DNA of 64,000 nucleotides from Escherichia phage vB_EcoM-172859UKE1. The notes under the pieces are model-generated. The model searched no databases and had not been told where the DNA came from. It was given only the letters and a program-made list of their open reading frames with translations. The stretch is from sequence record MZ234025.1, one strand, 5' to 3'. Shown here piece after piece: positions 11,406 through 55,687 of this stretch; the stretch's first letter is position 1; each line of letters opens with the position of its first letter. The translations under genes and the position numbers were made by a program.

Positions 11406-12218
11406 TTAGAAACGAGATGCGACTTTCGCATATAAACTTACATTAGAATTCTGTTCTACCTGAGTTGTGGTAGTGTCAACTGCTTCGGCAACAAAATTAA
11501 GACCGGCAGCGTCATTGTCAACTGTATTTATACTTTCGGTAATAGCGGCTTCTTCTTTAGTAGAACCTTTAACCATTTCTACAATAGCAGTTAACTTAGT
11601 ACCAAATGCGTCAGAATAATCCATACCTTCAACCAGGCCAATAACTTTTTCTTTCTGAGATTCAGTCAGGTCTTTTACGCTTTCATTAATAGCGGTTTCA
11701 CGCTGAACGTAATTGATATATGCATCACGTTTGGTAACTTCTTCGAACAAACGAGCGGTTTCTTCTTTATGTTCGGCCAGCTCTTCTTCCATTTCTGCTA
11801 CAACATCTACAGATTCTTCTGGAACAACAACGTTATGTTCAACAAACAGTTCTTTCAGACCACCAAGCATGGATTCGAACAAATCAGCTTTAATGCCTTT
11901 ATCAACTGCGATTTGGTTTTCTGCGAGCCATTCTTTTGCAAGATGGTCTAGGAATTTAGAAGCTTGTTCAGCCAATTTTTTATCAGCTTTCTCTTCAGCA
12001 TCTTCTTTAGCCTTTTCAACTTCTTCTTCGGCTTTTTCGGCGATGGCTTTGATATGAGATTCAGCCAGTTTGACTGCTTCCTGCTTAACGGTGGCTTCGA
12101 ATACAGTGCTGAAATTAGCTTTAACGTCCGGAGACAGTTCTACTGATTCGAAAACACTATTAAGAGCAACTGAAGTCTCGATGTTCTGAGCTTCTTTCAA
12201 AAGTTGTTCTTTGATCAT
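11406..12218 (-). CDS. 22: Prohead core scaffold protein gp22
   Basis: 270-aa acidic coiled-coil protein directly upstream of gene 23. Confidence 0.9.
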   Translation of the reverse strand: MIKEQLLKEAQNIETSVALNSVFESVELSPDVKANFSTVFEATVKQEAVKLAESHIKAIAEKAEEEVEKAKEDAEEKADKKLAEQASKFLDHLAKEWLAENQIAVDKGIKADLFESMLGGLKELFVEHNVVVPEESVDVVAEMEEELAEHKEETARLFEEVTKRDAYINYVQRETAINESVKDLTESQKEKVIGLVEGMDYSDAFGTKLTAIVEMVKGSTKEEAAITESINTVDNDAAGLNFVAEAVDTTTTQVEQNSNVSLYAKVASRF

Positions 12219-12248: not shown

Positions 12249-12256
12249 TATTTATA
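12249..12256 (-). promoter_or_regulatory. T4-type late promoter box TATAAATA (for gene 22)
   Basis: Exact TATAAATA on minus strand at the 3' end of gene 21. Confidence 0.55.
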
Positions 12257-12893
12257 ATGCTTTTAAACTCTCTGCGAGAGCTTTAAATGCTTCGTCAGCA
12301 CTGTTTTTGGTGATTTCCACCGAATTTTCTGATTCTGATATTTGTTTAGGAGTAACCCAAGCATCTGGAGCAGAAGGTCCCCATACGGCATCTACGCCGA
12401 CGGTTAATTTAAATCCTTCGTTCACGATACGGTACCCTTTATTGGTGTCGGTTAAAGAACCAAGACCACGAGAGGAAACACCTGGAATCCAACCAGCTCG
12501 TATATTAGCAGCTAATTTATCGCCGGGACCGTGGTCGCCTTCAATAATTCTAGCACGTCCATATACATCGTTTCCTTTCCACCACATATCTTCAATAATG
12601 ATAGCGGCTTGCATAGGGTCAACATTTGCACGAGGTGGATGGTTTAATTCTCCAAGGGCTTGTTTGGTTGCGACTTGTTCTTTAATATAGTCACTTACTG
12701 CTTTTTCCAAAACACGTTTAGGATATAAACGTTTATTTCGGTTAACAACCTCTGCCTGAAGAAAAATACCTTCTATATAAAGCCCTGGTTTTAAGCCAGA
12801 ATCTTTTCCATCATGAGATTCCAACATTGGAACGCCATCAATAATCTCACCGGGTTGACCCCAAGTTTCAATAAGTAACTCGGGTTTATTCAT
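12252..12893 (-). CDS. 21: Prohead core protease gp21
   Basis: 213 aa; position and size as T4 gp21. Confidence 0.9.
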   Translation of the reverse strand: MNKPELLIETWGQPGEIIDGVPMLESHDGKDSGLKPGLYIEGIFLQAEVVNRNKRLYPKRVLEKAVSDYIKEQVATKQALGELNHPPRANVDPMQAAIIIEDMWWKGNDVYGRARIIEGDHGPGDKLAANIRAGWIPGVSSRGLGSLTDTNKGYRIVNEGFKLTVGVDAVWGPSAPDAWVTPKQISESENSVEITKNSADEAFKALAESLKAL

Positions 12894-41960: not shown

Positions 41961-42248
41961 ATGAAAACTTATCAAGAGTTTATATCACCTATTGCTAACG
42001 TTTCTACTCTGACCGAAGCAACCCTTACTTCCGAAGTTATTAAAGCAAATAAAGGACGTGAGGGTAAACCAATGATTAGTCTGGCTGACGGCGAAGAAGT
42101 AAAAGGTACTGTTTACTTAGGGGATGGATGGTCTGCTAAGAAAGACGGCGCTACTATTGTTATCTCTCCGGCTGAAGAGACCGCACTGTTTAAAGCTAAG
42201 CATATTTCTGTAGCTCAGCTTAAAATTATTGCAAAAACTCTTCTGTAA
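41961..42248 (+). CDS. ipI: Internal protein I-like (capsid-targeted, DNA co-injected)
   Basis: 95 aa (length of T4 IPI precursor); N-terminal capsid targeting sequence MKTYQEFI...LTE; position after 57B. Confidence 0.65.
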   Translation: MKTYQEFISPIANVSTLTEATLTSEVIKANKGREGKPMISLADGEEVKGTVYLGDGWSAKKDGATIVISPAEETALFKAKHISVAQLKIIAKTLL

Positions 42249-44273: not shown

Positions 44274-44583
44274 AAGCCGGGTCGCTACCGGCAAGTCGTC
44301 GGACTGATGTTCCCTGAGTAAGGACTGGTCTTAATAAATCTTTACGATTTGTTAATATCCCCTTACATCACAGCAGAAACGGCGCACCGAATTATCGATT
44401 CGAGGAAATATCTTTGCCGTAAGCCGAGTAGCGTTTTTGACGGAACGTTCGGATATGGTCGAGATATGGCCTTTTAAAAATATTGAGTAGCGTCAACTGC
44501 TTAATAACCGGGTTCGAATCCCGGCGTTTCGTACAAACACTTGCCTTAGCAGGTGGAACCCCGACAAGGTTGCCGCAAGGCTT
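44274..44583 (+). ncRNA. Candidate stable noncoding RNA region next to the tRNA genes
   Basis: About 310 nt without a credible ORF, GC-richer than surroundings, tRNA-like T-arm CCGGG-TTCGAAT-CCCGG at 44508-44524, ends at a strong terminator; analogous to T4 stable RNAs by position. Confidence 0.3.
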
Positions 44584-44612
44584 AGCCCCTTCCGAAAGGT
44601 CGGGGCTTTTTG
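44584..44612 (+). terminator. Rho-independent terminator
   Basis: AGCCCC...GGGGCT hairpin followed by TTTTT; near-identical copy at 60733. Confidence 0.7.
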
Positions 44613-44656
44613 GCATAATAATAAATAGATAAGTTAATTAACTTAGGAAAAGCAAC

Positions 44657-45121
44657 ATGAAATCATACGCTGAATTTTTGACTGAACAATCTAGTTCAGA
44701 TGTAAAAGCCGCTGCGATTGCAGCAATTCAAGCAGGTAAATATTCTTACAAAGACGCCTCTGATGAAGAACGTTTCCGTTTTATTAGAGATTTTAAAGCC
44801 GAAGGTTTTACTAATGCTAATACTGTTAGCCGAGTTTTTAAAAGCCTAGCTGCATCAGGTGAATTGTTCCAGAAAGCTACAGGTAAAGCACCTGCGCCAA
44901 AAACAGACCCTAAAGCAGCTCAAGAAAAAAATATCGCCAAAGGAATTATTTCTAAGTATGAAGCAATTCTTAAAGAGCTTTTAGTAATCAAAACAGAAGG
45001 CCAGAAACTGGCACGAGCACATAGCTTCAAAGATAATCCTCACGCTCATAGCCTTGAGTATGTTGAAGATATCCAAAAACTTATTAAAGACCGTATCTGG
45101 TCTGCTAAACAAATTAAATAA
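44657..45121 (+). CDS. Internal-protein-like protein with CTS-like N-terminus (154 aa)
   Basis: N-terminus MKSYAEFLTE resembles the T4 capsid targeting sequence MKTYQEFIAE. Confidence 0.55.
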   Translation: MKSYAEFLTEQSSSDVKAAAIAAIQAGKYSYKDASDEERFRFIRDFKAEGFTNANTVSRVFKSLAASGELFQKATGKAPAPKTDPKAAQEKNIAKGIISKYEAILKELLVIKTEGQKLARAHSFKDNPHAHSLEYVEDIQKLIKDRIWSAKQIK

Positions 45122-52397: not shown

Positions 52398-52845
52398 GAA
52401 AAATAAAGTGAAAGAACTATCAGCCGGTATTATCTTCATGACAAAAGATAAAGAGTTATTCATGGGGCGTGTAACTGGTTCTCGTCCTAAAGGTGCATTA
52501 GCTCATCGGTGGGATATTCCTAAAGGCCGTGTCGAACCCGGCGAATCTCCTATTGAAGCCGCTATTCGTGAATGCGAAGAAGAAACTGGGTTTACACAAT
52601 ATGACCCTGCCTTCCTGAAAGACCTAGGTGAACATAATTACTCAGACAATAAGAATATTCATCTGTTCCTATATACCATCCCTGTAGAGCACGAGCAATT
52701 CAGAAACAGTGTTTGTAATTCTTATCATACATTCCCAGACGGACGACAGATTCCTGAATTTGATGCATTCGCTTTAATTAAACCTTCTCAATGGGAATAT
52801 GTAATGGGCAAATCATTATATAAGGTGCTCACTACCCTCCTATAA
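52387..52845 (+). CDS. nudE: Nudix hydrolase NudE
   Basis: 152 aa; Nudix box GRVEPGESPIEAAIRECEEETG; directly upstream of e as in T4. Confidence 0.85.
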   Translation: MMSKKNKVKELSAGIIFMTKDKELFMGRVTGSRPKGALAHRWDIPKGRVEPGESPIEAAIRECEEETGFTQYDPAFLKDLGEHNYSDNKNIHLFLYTIPVEHEQFRNSVCNSYHTFPDGRQIPEFDAFALIKPSQWEYVMGKSLYKVLTTLL

Positions 52846-52855
52846 GTAATAAATA

Positions 52856-52875
52856 CCTCCTATAAACGTGGGAGG
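52856..52875 (+). promoter_or_regulatory. RBS-sequestering hairpin with embedded late-promoter-like box upstream of e
   Basis: CCTCC...GGAGG inverted repeat enclosing TATAAACG; the right arm is the SD of e. Confidence 0.45.
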
Positions 52876-52879
52876 TATT

Positions 52880-53368
52880 ATGAATATATTTGAAATGCTT
52901 CGTAATGACGAAGGTCTTAGACTGACTTTATACAAAGACACTGAAGGCTTTTGGACGATTGGCATAGGCCATTTAGTAACAAAGAACCCGTCTTTAGCCG
53001 TAGCTAAAGCTGAACTTGACAGAATGATCGGTCGTAAATGCAACGGTACAATTACCCTTGATGAGGCTGAAAAGCTATTTAATGAAGACGTTGATAAAGC
53101 CGTTCGCGGAATCTTGGGTAATGCTAAACTTAAACCGGTATACGATTCTTTAGATGCGGTTCGTCGATGTGCATTGGTCAATATGGTCTTCCAAATGGGT
53201 GTAGCAGGCGTCGCCGGTTTTACTAATTCTCTTCGTATGCTTCAACAGAAACGTTGGGACGAAGCGGCAGTAAATCTAGCCCAATCTAAATGGTATCGTC
53301 AGACACCTAATCGCGCGAAACGCGTAATCTCAACATTTAAAACAGGAACTTGGAAAGCGTATATATGA
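52880..53368 (+). CDS. e: Lysozyme (endolysin) e
   Basis: 162 aa from ATG 52880; matches recalled T4 lysozyme ([20 protein letters not shown]...TGTW). Confidence 0.95.
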
Positions 53369-53646
53369 AAACATATAGTGAATTTTTATCAGAATCTATT
53401 CTTAGCGAAGCTACTGACACATTTGCAACTAAGCTAGGTGCAGCTTTGGTTGAAGCTGAAAGTCTATTAGCACGTATTTCTGAACTTGCTAGTAAGATAG
53501 ATACTCGCAAATTTGAGCGCACTAGTGATATCGTTAAGCTTGAAGCATTGTTGCGCATGTGCGATAAACCGGAAGAAATCGCTAAGAACGGCTCTCTAAT
53601 GAAACAACGTCTTGAAAAATATATTTCAGGCGCTTCAGAAAAATAG
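53365..53646 (+). CDS. Internal-protein-like protein with CTS (93 aa)
   Basis: N-terminus [10 protein letters not shown]; located between e and denV where T4 has ipIII/ipII. Confidence 0.6.
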
Positions 53647-53647
53647 T

Positions 53648-53677
53648 GTTTACTTCCTCCAAGAGTTTTGATACTAT
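53648..53677 (+). promoter_or_regulatory. Early promoter with inverted repeat whose right arm contains the SD
   Basis: GTTTAC at 53648-53653, 18-nt spacer, TACTAT at 53672-53677; arms TTCCTCCAAG/CTTGGAGGAA. Confidence 0.6.
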
Positions 53678-53704
53678 ACATTCATCAACTACTTGGAGGA
53701 AATT

Positions 53705-54118
53705 ATGACCCGTATCAATTTAACACTTGTTTCTGAACTGGCCGACCAACATCTTATGGCTGAGTATCGTGAATTACCTCGTGTATTCGGTGCAGTCCGT
53801 AAACATGTCCAAAACGGTAAACGTGTAAAAGATTTTAAAATCTCTCCAACATTTATCTTAGGCACAGGTCACGTAACATTCTTTTACGACAAACTCGAAT
53901 TTTTACGTTTACGACAAATCGAGCTAATCGCTGAATGTTTGAAACGTGGTTTCAAAATCAAGGACACGACAGTCCAGGATATTTCCGACATCCCTGCCGA
54001 ATTTCGTAATAATTATGTCCCGTCCGAAGCGTCCATTGCGATAAGTCAAGCACGCTTAGATGAAAAAATTGCTCAACGTCCGACTTGGTACAAATACTAT
54101 GGTAAATCAATTTACTAA
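53705..54118 (+). CDS. denV: Endonuclease V (pyrimidine dimer DNA glycosylase) DenV
   Basis: 137 aa from ATG 53705; matches recalled T4 endonuclease V ([34 protein letters not shown]...). Confidence 0.95.
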
Positions 54119-54124
54119 GGAAAA

Positions 54125-54241
54125 ATGAAAATGTATCAAGAATTTATCATTGAAGCAGATGCCAAAGGTCCTAAAGTAGATGTTGACGATATTGGATACG
54201 ATTTTAACAACTTCGGAATTATTTCTGGCGGTAAAGCTTAA
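54125..54241 (+). CDS. Mini internal-protein-like peptide with CTS (38 aa)
   Basis: MKMYQEFIIEADAKG...; AAGGAAAA SD; below the ORF-track cutoff. Confidence 0.4.
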   Translation: MKMYQEFIIEADAKGPKVDVDDIGYDFNNFGIISGGKA

Positions 54242-54244
54242 ATT

Positions 54245-54274
54245 GTTTACGCTTAAGTATTAATATGGTATAAT
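54245..54274 (+). promoter_or_regulatory. Early promoter (near-consensus)
   Basis: GTTTAC at 54245-54250, 18-nt spacer, TGgTATAAT at 54266-54274. Confidence 0.65.
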
Positions 54275-54304
54275 TACTCTATCAAAACAAACAAGGAAAC
54301 AAAA

Positions 54305-54619
54305 ATGAAAACGTATAAAGAATTTATTGCAGAATCCGCCAACCAACGCGTTGAAGGCGGTTATATTTGGATTGAACAAGTTGAACCACCGAGCCGCACT
54401 TCTACAGGTAAATGGAAAATTACTGTTGATGGTCCTGGTGGTAAACGTAGGACCCTTAAAGAAATTAATGGGTACTATGAAGAAGCTCTTTCGGATGCAG
54501 GAACTTACATGATGCAAATCATGATTAAAAACCCTGAAAACCGTTTTGCAGCTAAAGTCTTCCGTCGCATCGGTAATAAACTTTATGATGCATACTCTAA
54601 AAACTTCCCTAAAGAATAA
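54305..54619 (+). CDS. Internal-protein-like protein with CTS (104 aa)
   Basis: N-terminus MKTYKEFIAE. Confidence 0.6.
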   Translation: MKTYKEFIAESANQRVEGGYIWIEQVEPPSRTSTGKWKITVDGPGGKRRTLKEINGYYEEALSDAGTYMMQIMIKNPENRFAAKVFRRIGNKLYDAYSKNFPKE

Positions 54620-54644
54620 CATAAATTAAAACAATAGGAACAAA

Positions 54645-54974
54645 ATGAAAACGTATCAAGAGTTTATCACTGAAGTTACATTATCTGCGGAACAGAAAGC
54701 TGCTATCGAAGAAGGTAAAAATCCCAAAGTAACATATAAAGTAAATAGTAAAGGCGTTTTTGATGGTTTGGTTCAAGACCCTGAATTGAAAAAAGCTCTT
54801 TCTAAAACTAATGCGTACTTTGCTCCTAAATTTAACACAGCCGGTGTACTTATTGGATTGGATGTATTCAACTCTAAAGGTGTTCTATCTAGTGCCTTTG
54901 GTTATGCCGCTAACAAAATTACCAAAGCTGCATGGGAATCCAATACCAAACAAGCTCAAAAGCCTAGAGTATAA
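54645..54974 (+). CDS. Internal-protein-like protein with CTS (109 aa)
   Basis: N-terminus MKTYQEFITE. Confidence 0.6.
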   Translation: MKTYQEFITEVTLSAEQKAAIEEGKNPKVTYKVNSKGVFDGLVQDPELKKALSKTNAYFAPKFNTAGVLIGLDVFNSKGVLSSAFGYAANKITKAAWESNTKQAQKPRV

Positions 54975-55081
54975 TTCTTGCCTAATAAAGGGAAACGCAA
55001 CCTCTCCTCATGAACGTCGAGTCCTCTGAGTGATGTACCTTTTCCAACCTGTAATAAGGTCGAGCCCAAGTGCGGTAATGG

Positions 55082-55111
55082 GTTTACATAGCGAGTCGAA
55101 GGACCTAACAT
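55082..55111 (+). promoter_or_regulatory. Putative early promoter
   Basis: GTTTAC at 55082-55087, 18-nt spacer, TAACAT. Confidence 0.4.
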
Positions 55112-55147
55112 GTGCCACGGAATGGCCCCAACCTTAAGAGAAACTAA

Positions 55148-55687
55148 ATGAGAACATTTTTAACCGGACCTTATCTATCCCTGATGAATGCTTTTACACA
55201 CCATTCTGATGCTAGAGTAGAAGAAATTTGTAAGAACGGTTATGCCCCACCGTTTGAAGACGTACTCAAGCAGTACTGTACACTTCGTTTAGACGGCGGC
55301 AGACAATCCGGTAAATCAATTGCTGTGACTAATTTTGCTGCTAATTGGTTGTATGATGGCGGAACAGTTATTGTTCTTTCTAATACTTCAGCTTACGCTA
55401 AAATTTCTGCCGGCAACATTGAAAAAGAATTTTCTCGATATTCTAGCGATGATATTCGATTCCGTTTATTTACTGATTCTGTCCGTAGTTTTATTGGTAA
55501 TGAAGGACATAAATTCCGTGGATTAACGCTTTCTCGTATTCTGTACATAATTGACGAGCCTATTAAAGCTCCTGATATGGATAAGATTTACGACATCCAT
55601 ATTAAAACAGTCCAACACTGTTGCAAAAGCAAATATTGCATCGGCGGTAATGCTCGTCCTCAATTTTTTGTGATTGGAATGCAATGA
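55148..55687 (+). CDS. P-loop NTPase of unknown function (179 aa)
   Basis: Walker A GGRQSGKS and Walker B-like ILYIIDEP. Confidence 0.6.
   Translation: MRTFLTGPYLSLMNAFTHHSDARVEEICKNGYAPPFEDVLKQYCTLRLDGGRQSGKSIAVTNFAANWLYDGGTVIVLSNTSAYAKISAGNIEKEFSRYSSDDIRFRLFTDSVRSFIGNEGHKFRGLTLSRILYIIDEPIKAPDMDKIYDIHIKTVQHCCKSKYCIGGNARPQFFVIGMQ

What the first reader, a model, noticed from the sequence alone, without database searches (positions are those of the whole stretch)
53365..54974. Expanded, diversified family of capsid-targeted internal-protein genes around denV
Four ORFs (53365-53646, 54125-54241, 54305-54619, 54645-54974) begin with variants of the T4 capsid targeting sequence ([40 protein letters not shown]) and then diverge completely. 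In T4 this leader directs proteins into the head for co-injection with DNA, and IPI* is an injected inhibitor of a type IV restriction system. T4 has two IP genes between e and denV; this phage has one there and three more after denV. They are strong candidates for injected, host-specific anti-defence effectors of unknown target.
Basis: partly seen in the sequence, partly recalled or inferred. Interest (0 to 1): 0.8.

Follow-up and report, generated by a model that had tools for sequence, protein, structure and literature searches.

The report
Polymorphic internal-protein genes of T-even phage
These four small genes of an RB69-like T-even phage carry the short N-terminal tag that loads proteins into the phage head for injection with the DNA. 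The gene class and three of the four families have been described since 1994, one copy is a deletion remnant, and their host targets are still unknown.

Summary
Four + strand ORFs around denV start with [30 protein letters not shown] and MKTYQEFITE. Their DNA is 73% alike over codons 1-10 and about 30% after that. The motif occurs 6 times in the window against 0.04 expected. The window is a Mosigvirus (RB69-like) phage and also encodes a gp21 prohead protease (88% identical to T4) and a gp22 scaffold (77%). These are ordinary members of the polymorphic internal-protein (Ip) set of T-even phages (Repoila 1994).

- **ORF1** belongs to the Ip5 family. Its conserved cleavage site is probably E15, not E10.
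- **ORF2** is a 48-codon in-frame deletion remnant of an 86-aa IP that is intact in 214 of 217 phage records.
- **ORF3** belongs to the Ip10 family.
- **ORF4** is RB69ORF123c. It is annotated "hypothetical" in every record listed, occurs only in Mosigvirus and Dhakavirus, and has a compact alpha/beta fold with no known relative.

The layout e-Ip-denV-Ip-Ip-Ip-vs.8 is already annotated in phage VR25. An anti-defence role is a reasonable inference, because T4 Ip1-3 each block a GmrSD nuclease, but it is untested here.

In passing, I found a covarying, Rfam-absent RNA motif at 55033-55092. It is shared with rV5-like and other phages, where it usually sits upstream of tRNA clusters.

The parts
53365..53646 (+). 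ORF1, an Ip5-family internal protein (93 aa). Its start overlaps the e stop codon (ATGA). Leader: [10 protein letters not shown]|SILSE|A.
54125..54241 (+). ORF2, a remnant (38 aa) of an 86-aa internal protein. It has lost 144 nt (48 codons) in frame.
   Evidence: The alignment with APCEc01 and RB69 shows the deletion at junction ...CCAAAG|GTCCTAAAG.... The full-length form matches phrog_2667 'internal head protein'. The full-length form is present in 214 of 217 phage records, and the truncated form is seen in UGJNEcP1.
54246..54274 (+). Early-type sigma-70 promoter (TTTACG-17-TATAAT with an upstream TG) ahead of ORF3 and ORF4. It has PeSL-like architecture.
   Evidence: Best promoter-like site in the region, matching 10 of 12 positions. 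T4 ipII and ipIII have the same GTTTAC...TA-rich -10 arrangement. The PeSL consensus is TTTACW-N17-TAYWAT (PMC4122927).
54305..54619 (+). ORF3, an Ip10-family internal protein (104 aa). Leader: MKTYKEFIAE|S. The mature part is 10.8 kDa with pI 9.6.
   Evidence: It is 72-73% identical to SP18 'Ip10' (P0002) and VR25 ip10. It occurs in 189 phage records, with 52-57% relatives in Karamvirus and in Klebsiella and Kosakonia phages. dN/dS is 0.20.
54645..54974 (+). ORF4, an RB69ORF123c-type tagged protein (109 aa). Leader: MKTYQEFITE|V. The mature part is 10.6 kDa with pI 9.7.
41961..42248 (+). IPI ortholog (95 aa) at the second IP locus. It is not in the finding.
   Evidence: Pfam IPI_T4 at 1.1e-49. 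It is 86% identical to T4 IPI, with the LTE|A site at residues 17-19.
44657..45121 (+). Sixth tagged ORF (154 aa, MKSYAEFLTE|Q, mature pI 9.6). It is not in the finding.
   Evidence: Found by the motif scan. It matches phrog_2280, function unknown. It occurs in 511 phage records, all listed rows 'hypothetical' or unannotated. It has no homolog in T4 60-78 kb.
12252..12893 (-). gp21 prohead protease, the enzyme expected to remove the leaders.
   Evidence: Pfam Peptidase_S77 at 2.9e-107. It is 88% identical to T4 gp21.
11406..12218 (-). gp22 scaffolding core protein, the structure the leader is thought to bind.
   Evidence: Pfam T4_CASP at 1.5e-89. It is 77% identical to T4 gp22.
52880..53368 (+). 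e lysozyme, the left anchor of the locus.
   Evidence: ORF list and synteny with the T4, RB69 and APCEc01 annotations.
53705..54118 (+). denV endonuclease V, the conserved gene inside the locus.
   Evidence: ORF list and synteny with the T4, RB69 and APCEc01 annotations.

Best explanation
The four ORFs are members of the polymorphic internal-protein (Ip) gene set that T-even phages keep in two hyperplastic loci. Here the locus is e-vs.8 of a Mosigvirus (RB69-like) phage.

**Proposed mechanism.** Only the sequence features, the homologies and the presence of the machinery are shown here; every step of the mechanism below is inferred.
1. The N-terminal ~10-residue capsid targeting sequence (MKTYxEF[I/L]xE) binds the gp22-based scaffolding core while the prohead assembles.
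2. The gp21 protease then cuts after Glu of the [L/I]-x-E motif. This is E10 in ORF2-4 and probably E15 in the Ip5-type ORF1.
3. The mature 9-11 kDa proteins stay in the head with the DNA and are ejected into the cell with it.
4. Once inside, the intact ones (ORF1/Ip5, ORF3/Ip10, ORF4/RB69ORF123c type) most likely act as stoichiometric inhibitors of first-line host defences. The most likely targets are modification-dependent (type IV, GmrSD-like) nucleases that attack the sugar-modified hmC DNA of these phages.
5. ORF2 is an internally deleted remnant and is probably inactive.

**How the set evolves.** The cassettes are exchanged between phages by recombination in the shared leader DNA and in early-promoter/stem-loop (PeSL) sequences.
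For: **Tag.** All four ORFs have Tyr4, Phe7, Ile/Leu8 and Glu10. These are the residues that amber-suppression work on T4 IPIII identified for targeting (4, 7) and processing (8, 10), as summarised in PMC9026906. The motif is far beyond chance. Its DNA is conserved at 0.73 against 0.30 downstream.

**Machinery in the same window.** gp20, gp21 (88% to T4), gp22 (77%), gp23 and gp24 are all present.

**Family identity.** ORF1 matches RB15 Ip5 from the original 1994 sequence set and VR25 ip5. ORF3 matches SP18 and VR25 Ip10. Full-length ORF2 matches phrog_2667 'internal head protein'. An IPI ortholog lies at 41961.

**Real coding genes.** dN/dS is 0.10-0.38. Relatives occur across genera.

**Locus plasticity.** T4, AnYang, VR25, RB69 and fGh-Ecl04 carry different tagged cassettes at the same place.

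**Function by analogy.** T4 Ip1, Ip2 and Ip3 each inhibit a different GmrSD type IV nuclease (PMC12373910). ipIII is needed on ECOR17 (PMC9391042).
Against: - No virion proteomics or cleavage data for these proteins was found.
- No exact late promoter (TATAAATA) lies in or near the locus. There are only one-mismatch versions upstream of e and an early-type promoter before ORF3. T4 ipII and ipIII look the same in this respect.
- The mature part of ORF1 is near neutral (pI 6.3-8.1), and the ORF2 remnant is acidic and only 28 aa.
- Silas et al. tested ip4-ip10 against GmrSD variants and found no reproducible inhibition. The target class is therefore a guess.
- The RB69 allele of ORF4 has Ala at position 10, and the RB69 allele of ORF1 has a degenerate leader. 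The tag is therefore not always maintained.
- The ORF3 structure model was too poor to use (pLDDT 49).
Confidence: 0.8

Rival explanations
1. The proteins are packaged and injected, but they serve a general physical role in the head, such as charge neutralisation, DNA condensation or aiding ejection. They would not be specific inhibitors of host defences.
For: The mature parts of ORF3, ORF4 and the ORF at 44657 are basic (pI 9.6-9.7), as the classical T4 internal proteins are. The head holds about 1000 internal protein molecules embedded in the DNA (PMC3012670). ip4-ip10 showed no reproducible GmrSD inhibition.
Against: All three T4 Ips now have specific nuclease targets with no cross-protection. 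The families are unrelated in sequence and come and go between close relatives, which fits an arms race better than a generic physical role. ORF1 is not basic.
Confidence: 0.15
2. Part of the set is decaying and no longer functional. ORF2, and possibly other copies, would be remnants carried along in a hyperplastic region.
For: ORF2 has lost 48 of 86 codons, and the intact form is present in 214 of 217 records. In RB69, ORF124c has a frameshifted 3' end, ORF127c has a degenerate leader (MKTYMNFYQN) and ORF123c has lost Glu10.
Against: ORF1, ORF3 and ORF4 are intact in the window, have canonical leaders and show dN/dS of 0.10-0.38. The ORF2 deletion is in frame and keeps the leader and the conserved C-terminal 24 residues, so a short packaged peptide is still possible.
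Confidence: 0.7
3. The shared N-terminus is only a recombination scar or a conserved translation-initiation region left by cassette shuffling, and it does not target these proteins to the capsid.
For: The leader DNA and the upstream promoter/SD are the only sequences shared between cassettes. PeSL-type elements are proposed recombination sites.
Against: The residues shown experimentally in T4 to matter for targeting and cleavage are exactly the ones kept, while other leader positions vary. The first ten residues of T4 IPIII alone load foreign proteins into heads (PMC9026906). gp21 and gp22 are 88% and 77% identical to T4.
Confidence: 0.03

Closest known systems
T4 internal proteins IPI, IPII and IPIII (Ip1-3)
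   Same: They share the same N-terminal capsid targeting sequence with an [I/L]-x-E gp21 site. They occupy the same two loci (57B-tRNA and e-denV). The mature proteins are similarly small and mostly basic. The upstream architecture is the same early-type promoter plus stem-loop.
   Different: The mature parts of ORF1-4 have no detectable similarity to IPII or IPIII. Three of the genes lie after denV, where T4 has none. T4 Ip1-3 have known GmrSD targets and these do not. The host phage is a Mosigvirus, whose type member RB69 has arabinosyl-hmC rather than glucosyl-hmC DNA (PMC6024577).
Ip5 (RB15/T6/PST 'ipV') and Ip10 (SP18, VR7/VR25), from the Repoila et al. 1994 Ip4-Ip10 series
   Same: ORF1 is 47.6% identical over 84 aa to RB15 Ip5 and 87% to VR25 ip5. 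ORF3 is 72-73% identical to SP18 and VR25 Ip10.
   Different: In Tequatrovirus phages Ip5 sits at the ipI locus. Here, and in VR25 and RB69, the Ip5-type gene is fused to the end of e. In Karamvirus the Ip10-type gene takes that position instead.
RB69 ORF127c-ORF123c and the VR25 ip5-denV-ip10-IP-ip7 cluster
   Same: The layout is identical: e, one tagged ORF, denV, three tagged ORFs, vs.8. The proteins are 91-98% identical to those of RB69.
   Different: In the window ORF2 is truncated, ORF3 is full length (RB69 ORF124c has a frameshifted end), and ORF1 and ORF4 have canonical leaders that RB69 has partly lost. VR25 has ip7 where this phage has the ORF123c type.
PeSL (promoter-early stem-loop) cassette shuffling in T4-like phages
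   Same: GTTTAC-N17-TA-rich -10 elements with adjacent hairpins flank ipI, denV, ORF3 and the gene after 45121.
   Different: ORF1, ORF2 and ORF4 have no promoter of their own. They are coupled to the upstream gene, so the shared leader DNA is the more likely exchange point for them. This is an inference.

Membership tests
T4-type CTS internal (head) proteins | N-terminal capsid targeting sequence with the targeting residues Tyr/Phe4 and Phe7 | tested here: met
   MKTY.EF is present in all four ORFs and in the two extra ORFs. The roles of these residues come from PMC9026906.
T4-type CTS internal (head) proteins | gp21 cleavage motif [L/I]-x-E directly after the targeting residues | tested here: met
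   LSE, IIE, IAE and ITE at residues 8-10. ORF1 also has LSE at 13-15, which is the site conserved in RB69, VR25 and RB15 Ip5.
T4-type CTS internal (head) proteins | The same genome encodes a T4-type prohead protease and scaffolding core | tested here: met
   Peptidase_S77 at 12252-12893 and T4_CASP at 11406-12218. They are 88% and 77% identical to T4 gp21 and gp22.
T4-type CTS internal (head) proteins | Located in one of the two IP hyperplastic loci | tested here: met
   The genes lie between e and vs.8, around denV. The second locus (57B-tRNA side) holds the IPI ortholog.
T4-type CTS internal (head) proteins | Small, basic mature protein | tested here: inconclusive
   ORF3 has pI 9.6 and ORF4 9.7. 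ORF1 has pI 6.3-8.1, depending on the cut site. The ORF2 remnant has pI 4.3 and 28 aa.
T4-type CTS internal (head) proteins | Physically present in the virion, N-terminally processed and ejected with the DNA | not testable with these tools
   No proteomic dataset for these proteins was found in the held literature.
Ip5 family | Sequence similarity of the mature part to Ip5 of RB15/T6 | tested here: met
Ip10 family | Sequence similarity of the mature part to Ip10 of SP18/VR7/VR25 | tested here: met
   P0002 'Ip10 [Shigella phage SP18]' is 72% identical over 100% of the query, E=1.9e-44. VR25 ip10 is 73% identical.
IPI*-like fold (PDB 2JUB type; Pfam IPI_T4) | Match to Pfam IPI_T4 or structural similarity to IPI* | tested here: not met
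Injected inhibitors of GmrSD type IV restriction enzymes | Binds and inhibits a GmrSD-family nuclease and restores plating | not testable with these tools
   The literature shows this only for T4 Ip1-3. ip4-ip10 gave no reproducible inhibition against the GmrSD variants tested (PMC12373910).

The most novel reading that the evidence does not exclude
ORF4 (RB69ORF123c type) and the 154-aa ORF at 44657 are annotated as internal proteins in none of the database rows I saw. They could be injected inhibitors of defences that act specifically on arabinosyl-hmC phages. Possible targets are type IV nuclease or glycosylase subtypes that the glucosyl-hmC-centred screens with T2, T4 and T6 could not reveal. 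If so, the Mosigvirus Ip set would give the first handles on the defences that shape the host range of ara-hmC phages.
Probability: 0.3. Interest if true: 0.55.

Novelty: already known. Interest (0 to 1): 0.3.

Why it matters
Internal proteins are among the few phage anti-defence factors delivered as ready-made protein together with the DNA. Every T4 member studied so far blocks a different type IV restriction enzyme. The orphan families seen here (Ip5, Ip10, RB69ORF123c type, phrog_2280) are therefore sensible baits for finding new host defences, especially those aimed at arabinosyl-hmC phages. But the genes, their tag and the idea are all established. What this window adds is an allele catalogue: one truncated copy, intact leaders where RB69 has degraded ones, and two unannotated tagged families. 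It does not add a new kind of system.

Tried and rejected
- **Paralogy of ORF3 and ORF4.** Both match phrog_3966 end to end. Without the leader, the two family profiles show no similarity (hhalign probability 0.14%). Pairwise BLAST similarity is weak (about 32-33% identity, E 3e-05 to 4e-04, over a stretch that begins with the shared leader). I rejected paralogy.
- **ORF3 structure.** The AF2 model from a 4-sequence alignment reached only pLDDT 49, so I did not use it.
- **Deeper homolog searches.** The families are very narrow: 2-3 clusters each. For mature ORF4 against 1.84 billion representatives there were 9 hits at E<=0.001. Only two are genuine; the rest are long multi-stretch proteins that I read as repetitive and spurious.
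- **Antisense ORFs.** The long antisense ORFs 53337-53681 and 54260-54622 match no PHROG family and conflict with the + strand dN/dS signal. I rejected them as genes.
- **Late promoters.** There is no exact TATAAATA in the locus. This is not decisive, because T4 ipII and ipIII also lack one.
- **Literature.** Repoila et al. 1994 is not held. Searches for virion proteomics of Mosigvirus internal proteins found nothing usable.
- **The 54975-55147 spacer as leftover coding sequence.** It reads as T4 vs.8 residues 6-40 only across two frameshifts. The vs.8 family profile starts at the downstream Met. The core recurs in intergenic DNA of unrelated phages. I rejected a coding reading in favour of an RNA element.
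- **The 44280-44620 non-coding stretch.** It has no tRNA, no Rfam family and no similarity to T4 rnaC or rnaD.
Full report
**What the window is.** The 1.85-kb region matches 792 phage records. The best are Escherichia phages UGJNEcP1 and UGJNEcP2 (98.8%, one collinear piece) and then many Mosigvirus genomes such as APCEc01, mar005P1 and RB69 at 97-98% in two pieces. The window also carries the T4-type head module on the minus strand: portal gp20, prohead protease gp21, scaffold gp22, major capsid protein gp23 and vertex protein gp24.

**Checking the observation.** The four ORFs are present exactly as described. e is 52880-53368 and its stop overlaps the ORF1 start (ATGA). denV is 53705-54118. 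ORF2 starts 6 nt after the denV stop. ORF3 has its own early-type promoter, TTTACG-17-TATAAT with TG, at 54246-54274. ORF4 follows 25 nt after ORF3.

A six-frame scan for MK.[YF].[ED]F gives six matches in 64 kb. All are on the + strand and at ORF starts. Shuffled sequence gives 0.04 on average. The six share 73% nucleotide identity over codons 1-10 and 30% over the next 20 codons.

- 41961-42248, a clear IPI ortholog (Pfam IPI_T4 1.1e-49; 86% identical to T4 IPI).
- 44657-45121, a 154-aa protein starting MKSYAEFLTE (phrog_2280, function unknown).

**What each ORF is.**
- **ORF1** matches phrog_3499 'internal head protein'. It is 87% identical to the gene annotated ip5 in phage VR25 and 91% to RB69ORF127c. 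It is 47.6% identical over 84 residues to Ip5 of phage RB15, in a 1994 GenBank entry titled 'DNA for Ip5, Ip9, Ip7, Ip8'.
- **ORF2** is not a complete gene. Alignment with APCEc01 and RB69 shows that 144 nt (48 codons) are missing in frame between ...GCCAAAG and GTCCTAAAG.... The intact 86-aa protein belongs to phrog_2667 'internal head protein'. It is present over at least 80% of its length in 214 of 217 phage records that have it, and the short form is seen in UGJNEcP1.
- **ORF3** is the Ip10 family. It is 72% identical to 'Ip10 [Shigella phage SP18]' and 73% to VR25 ip10. It occurs in 189 phage records, with 52-57% identical relatives in Enterobacter, Klebsiella and Kosakonia phages.
- **ORF4** is RB69ORF123c (97%). 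It occurs in 90 phage records, and the listed rows call it 'hypothetical protein' (one distant hit sits under a different annotation, an RNA polymerase ADP-ribosylase). Its only distant relatives (34-38%) are in Dhakavirus phages such as AnYang.

**Do the mature parts diverge completely?** Yes. PHROGs places ORF3 and ORF4 in one family (phrog_3966). But profiles of the two families built without the leader show no relationship (hhalign probability 0.14%). None of the four has a Pfam domain or a PDB relative by sequence. A full HMMER pass of mature ORF4 over 1.84 billion representative proteins returned nine hits at E<=0.001; only its own cluster and the Dhakavirus type are full-length matches, and I read the long multi-stretch hits as repetitive and spurious.

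All three intact genes are under purifying selection, with dN/dS of 0.10-0.38.

**The tag and the processing site.** According to the review of Black's work (PMC9026906), amber-suppression analysis of the T4 IPIII leader showed that residues 4 and 7 matter for targeting and residues 8 and 10 for cleavage. gp21 cuts after Glu in L/I-x-E. All four ORFs have Tyr4, Phe7, Ile/Leu8 and Glu10.

The Ip5 family needs a refinement. RB69 (MKTYMNFYQNLSLNE|A), VR25 (MKTYNEFLTVTTLNE|A) and RB15 Ip5 (MKTFKEFATKTTITE|S) lack a site at residues 8-10 but all keep [L/I]-x-E at 13-15. ORF1 is therefore probably matured at E15, like the long-leader IPI type. This is an inference.

The window's gp21 and gp22 are 88% and 77% identical to those of T4, so the recognition and cutting machinery is essentially the same.

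**Is the family 'expanded'?** Only relative to T4, which has ipIII and ipII between e and denV and nothing between denV and vs.8. Other phages compare as follows:
- RB69 and APCEc01 have the same four genes as the window.
- VR25 is annotated e-ip5-denV-ip10-'internal head protein'-ip7-vs.8.
- AnYang has five tagged ORFs at this locus.
- Karamvirus fGh-Ecl04 has a single Ip10-like gene next to e.

This is the known picture of a hyperplastic locus whose cassettes are swapped between phages. Repoila et al. 1994 described the polymorphic Ip genes recognised by their leader. Comeau et al. 2014 (PMC4122927) linked such exchanges to promoter-early/stem-loop elements with consensus TTTACW-N17-TAYWAT. 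Elements of that form sit upstream of ipI, denV and ORF3 here, as they do upstream of T4 ipII and ipIII.

**How it most likely works.**
- *Shown here:* the tag, the cleavage motif, the protease and scaffold genes, the family memberships, the purifying selection, and the absence of housekeeping homology.
- *Inferred from T4:* the leader binds the assembling core, gp21 removes it, and the mature proteins remain with the DNA and are injected.
- *Inferred by analogy:* they inhibit host defences. T4 Ip1 blocks GmrSD of strain CT596, Ip2 blocks the ECOR21 enzyme and Ip3 blocks the two-gene ECOR17 enzyme, with no cross-protection (PMC12373910). Loss of ipIII abolishes growth on ECOR17 (PMC9391042).

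The same study tested ip4-ip10 against further GmrSD variants and found no reproducible inhibition. The Ip5 and Ip10 families therefore remain orphans. The phage here is a Mosigvirus, and the type member RB69 carries arabinosyl-hmC instead of glucosyl-hmC (PMC6024577). The relevant nucleases may therefore differ from those probed with T2, T4 and T6.

**Points against, or still open.**
- No exact late promoter lies in the locus, although T4 ipII and ipIII are the same in this respect.
- ORF1 is not basic.
- ORF2 is a remnant.
- RB69 alleles show decay of the tag or the reading frame.
- I found no virion proteomics for these proteins.

**Verdict.** The finding is already known in kind, and largely in detail. 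The modest additions are the truncated ORF2 allele, the probable E15 site of the Ip5 type, and two tagged families that are not annotated as internal proteins in the database rows I saw (RB69ORF123c type and phrog_2280).

**Seen in passing: a conserved RNA-like element next to the locus.** The 173-nt spacer between ORF4 and the vs.8-like gene is far better conserved than a spacer should be. It is 83-84% identical in VR25 and AnYang, 89% over 79 nt in Karamvirus and 80% in T4. The indels between genera are not multiples of three.

In T4 this DNA is annotated as the first 40 codons of vs.8. Here it can be read that way only across two frameshifts, and the vs.8 family profile starts at the downstream Met.

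A 32-nt core, ACCTGTAATAAGGTCGAGCCCAAGTGCGGTAA (window 55047-55078), also occurs at 94-97% identity in intergenic DNA of rV5 and phage Ivi. It occurs in 30 IMG/VR loci, including contigs of about 46, 84, 117-121 and 148 kb.

On a gapless 20-sequence alignment, I tested a model with three parts: a closing helix with an invariant bulged G, and two invariant mini-hairpins whose loops hold all the variable core positions.
- 91% of cells are paired, against 79% in shuffles (0 of 500 shuffles as high).
- The covariation score is 0.308, against 0.078 in shuffles and 0.02-0.09 in slid controls.
- Three closing pairs are paired in all 20 sequences, with two to five pair types each.

I drew the structure by eye from the same sequences, so some circularity remains. 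No Rfam family matches, even at E<=10. A covariance model finds one copy per locus. Outside the T-even phages, the element lies about 200-600 nt upstream of a tRNA gene cluster on the same strand in six of seven contexts. This deserves its own follow-up.

Noticed in passing
window 55033-55092 (+); core 55047-55078; whole conserved spacer 54975-55147: A conserved structured RNA-like motif sits between ORF4 and the vs.8-like gene. Its nearly invariant 32-nt core (27 of 32 positions fixed), ACCTGTAATAAGGTCGAGCCCAAGTGCGGTAA, is closed by a covarying helix with a bulged G. It is present in five Tevenvirinae genera and also in rV5-like phages, phage Ivi and IMG/VR contigs of about 46-148 kb. In six of the seven non-T-even contexts it lies 200-600 nt upstream of a tRNA cluster on the same strand. 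No Rfam family matches. Covariation is 0.308 against 0.078 in shuffles (0 of 500 as high).
   Followed up: partly
L002 (T4 NC_000866) 64793-64912 versus window 55148-55687: T4 vs.8 is annotated with a 40-codon N-terminal extension that covers the RNA-like motif. In the window, RB69, VR25 and AnYang the gene starts at the downstream Met. The phrog_1488 profile (177 positions) also starts there. The T4 extension is probably a mis-annotation.
   Followed up: partly
window 41961-42248 and 44657-45121 (+): Two more ORFs carry the capsid targeting sequence and are not in the finding. One is an IPI ortholog (86% to T4 IPI). The other is a 154-aa basic protein (MKSYAEFLTE; phrog_2280). It is present in 511 phage records, with every listed row 'hypothetical' or unannotated, and it is absent from the T4 60-78 kb region.
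   Followed up: partly
window 44280-44620: A GC-rich stretch of about 340 nt without ORFs lies between a small gene after the tRNA-Met/tRNA-Arg pair and the tagged ORF at 44657. It contains a T-arm-like GGTTCGAATCCCGG and ends in a terminator-like hairpin. ARAGORN calls no tRNA, no Rfam family matches, and blastn finds no similarity to T4 rnaC or rnaD.
   Followed up: partly
L003 (RB69) 1076-1357, 2160-2432, 2501-2830: The RB69 alleles of these genes look partly degraded compared with the window. ORF127c has a degenerate leader (MKTYMNFYQN). ORF124c (Ip10 type) has a frameshifted 3' end (90 aa instead of 104 aa). ORF123c has Ala instead of Glu at leader position 10.
   Followed up: partly
window 52841-52882: Upstream of e are three one-mismatch late-promoter-like octamers (TATAAGTA, AATAAATA, TATAAACG). 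There is also an inverted repeat (cctcc...ggagg) that includes the e ribosome-binding site. This mirrors the T4 e arrangement, where T4 has two exact TATAAATA boxes.
   Followed up: no
window 53337-53681 (-) and 54260-54622 (-): Long antisense ORFs (114 and 120 aa) overlap ORF1 and ORF3. They match no PHROG family and are almost certainly not genes.
   Followed up: yes
PHROGs phrog_3966 versus window 54305-54619 and 54645-54974: PHROGs places the Ip10 type and the RB69ORF123c type in one family. Once the shared leader is removed, the two are unrelated (hhalign probability 0.14%). The shared capsid targeting sequence may be what chains unrelated internal proteins together in such clusterings.
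   Followed up: yes
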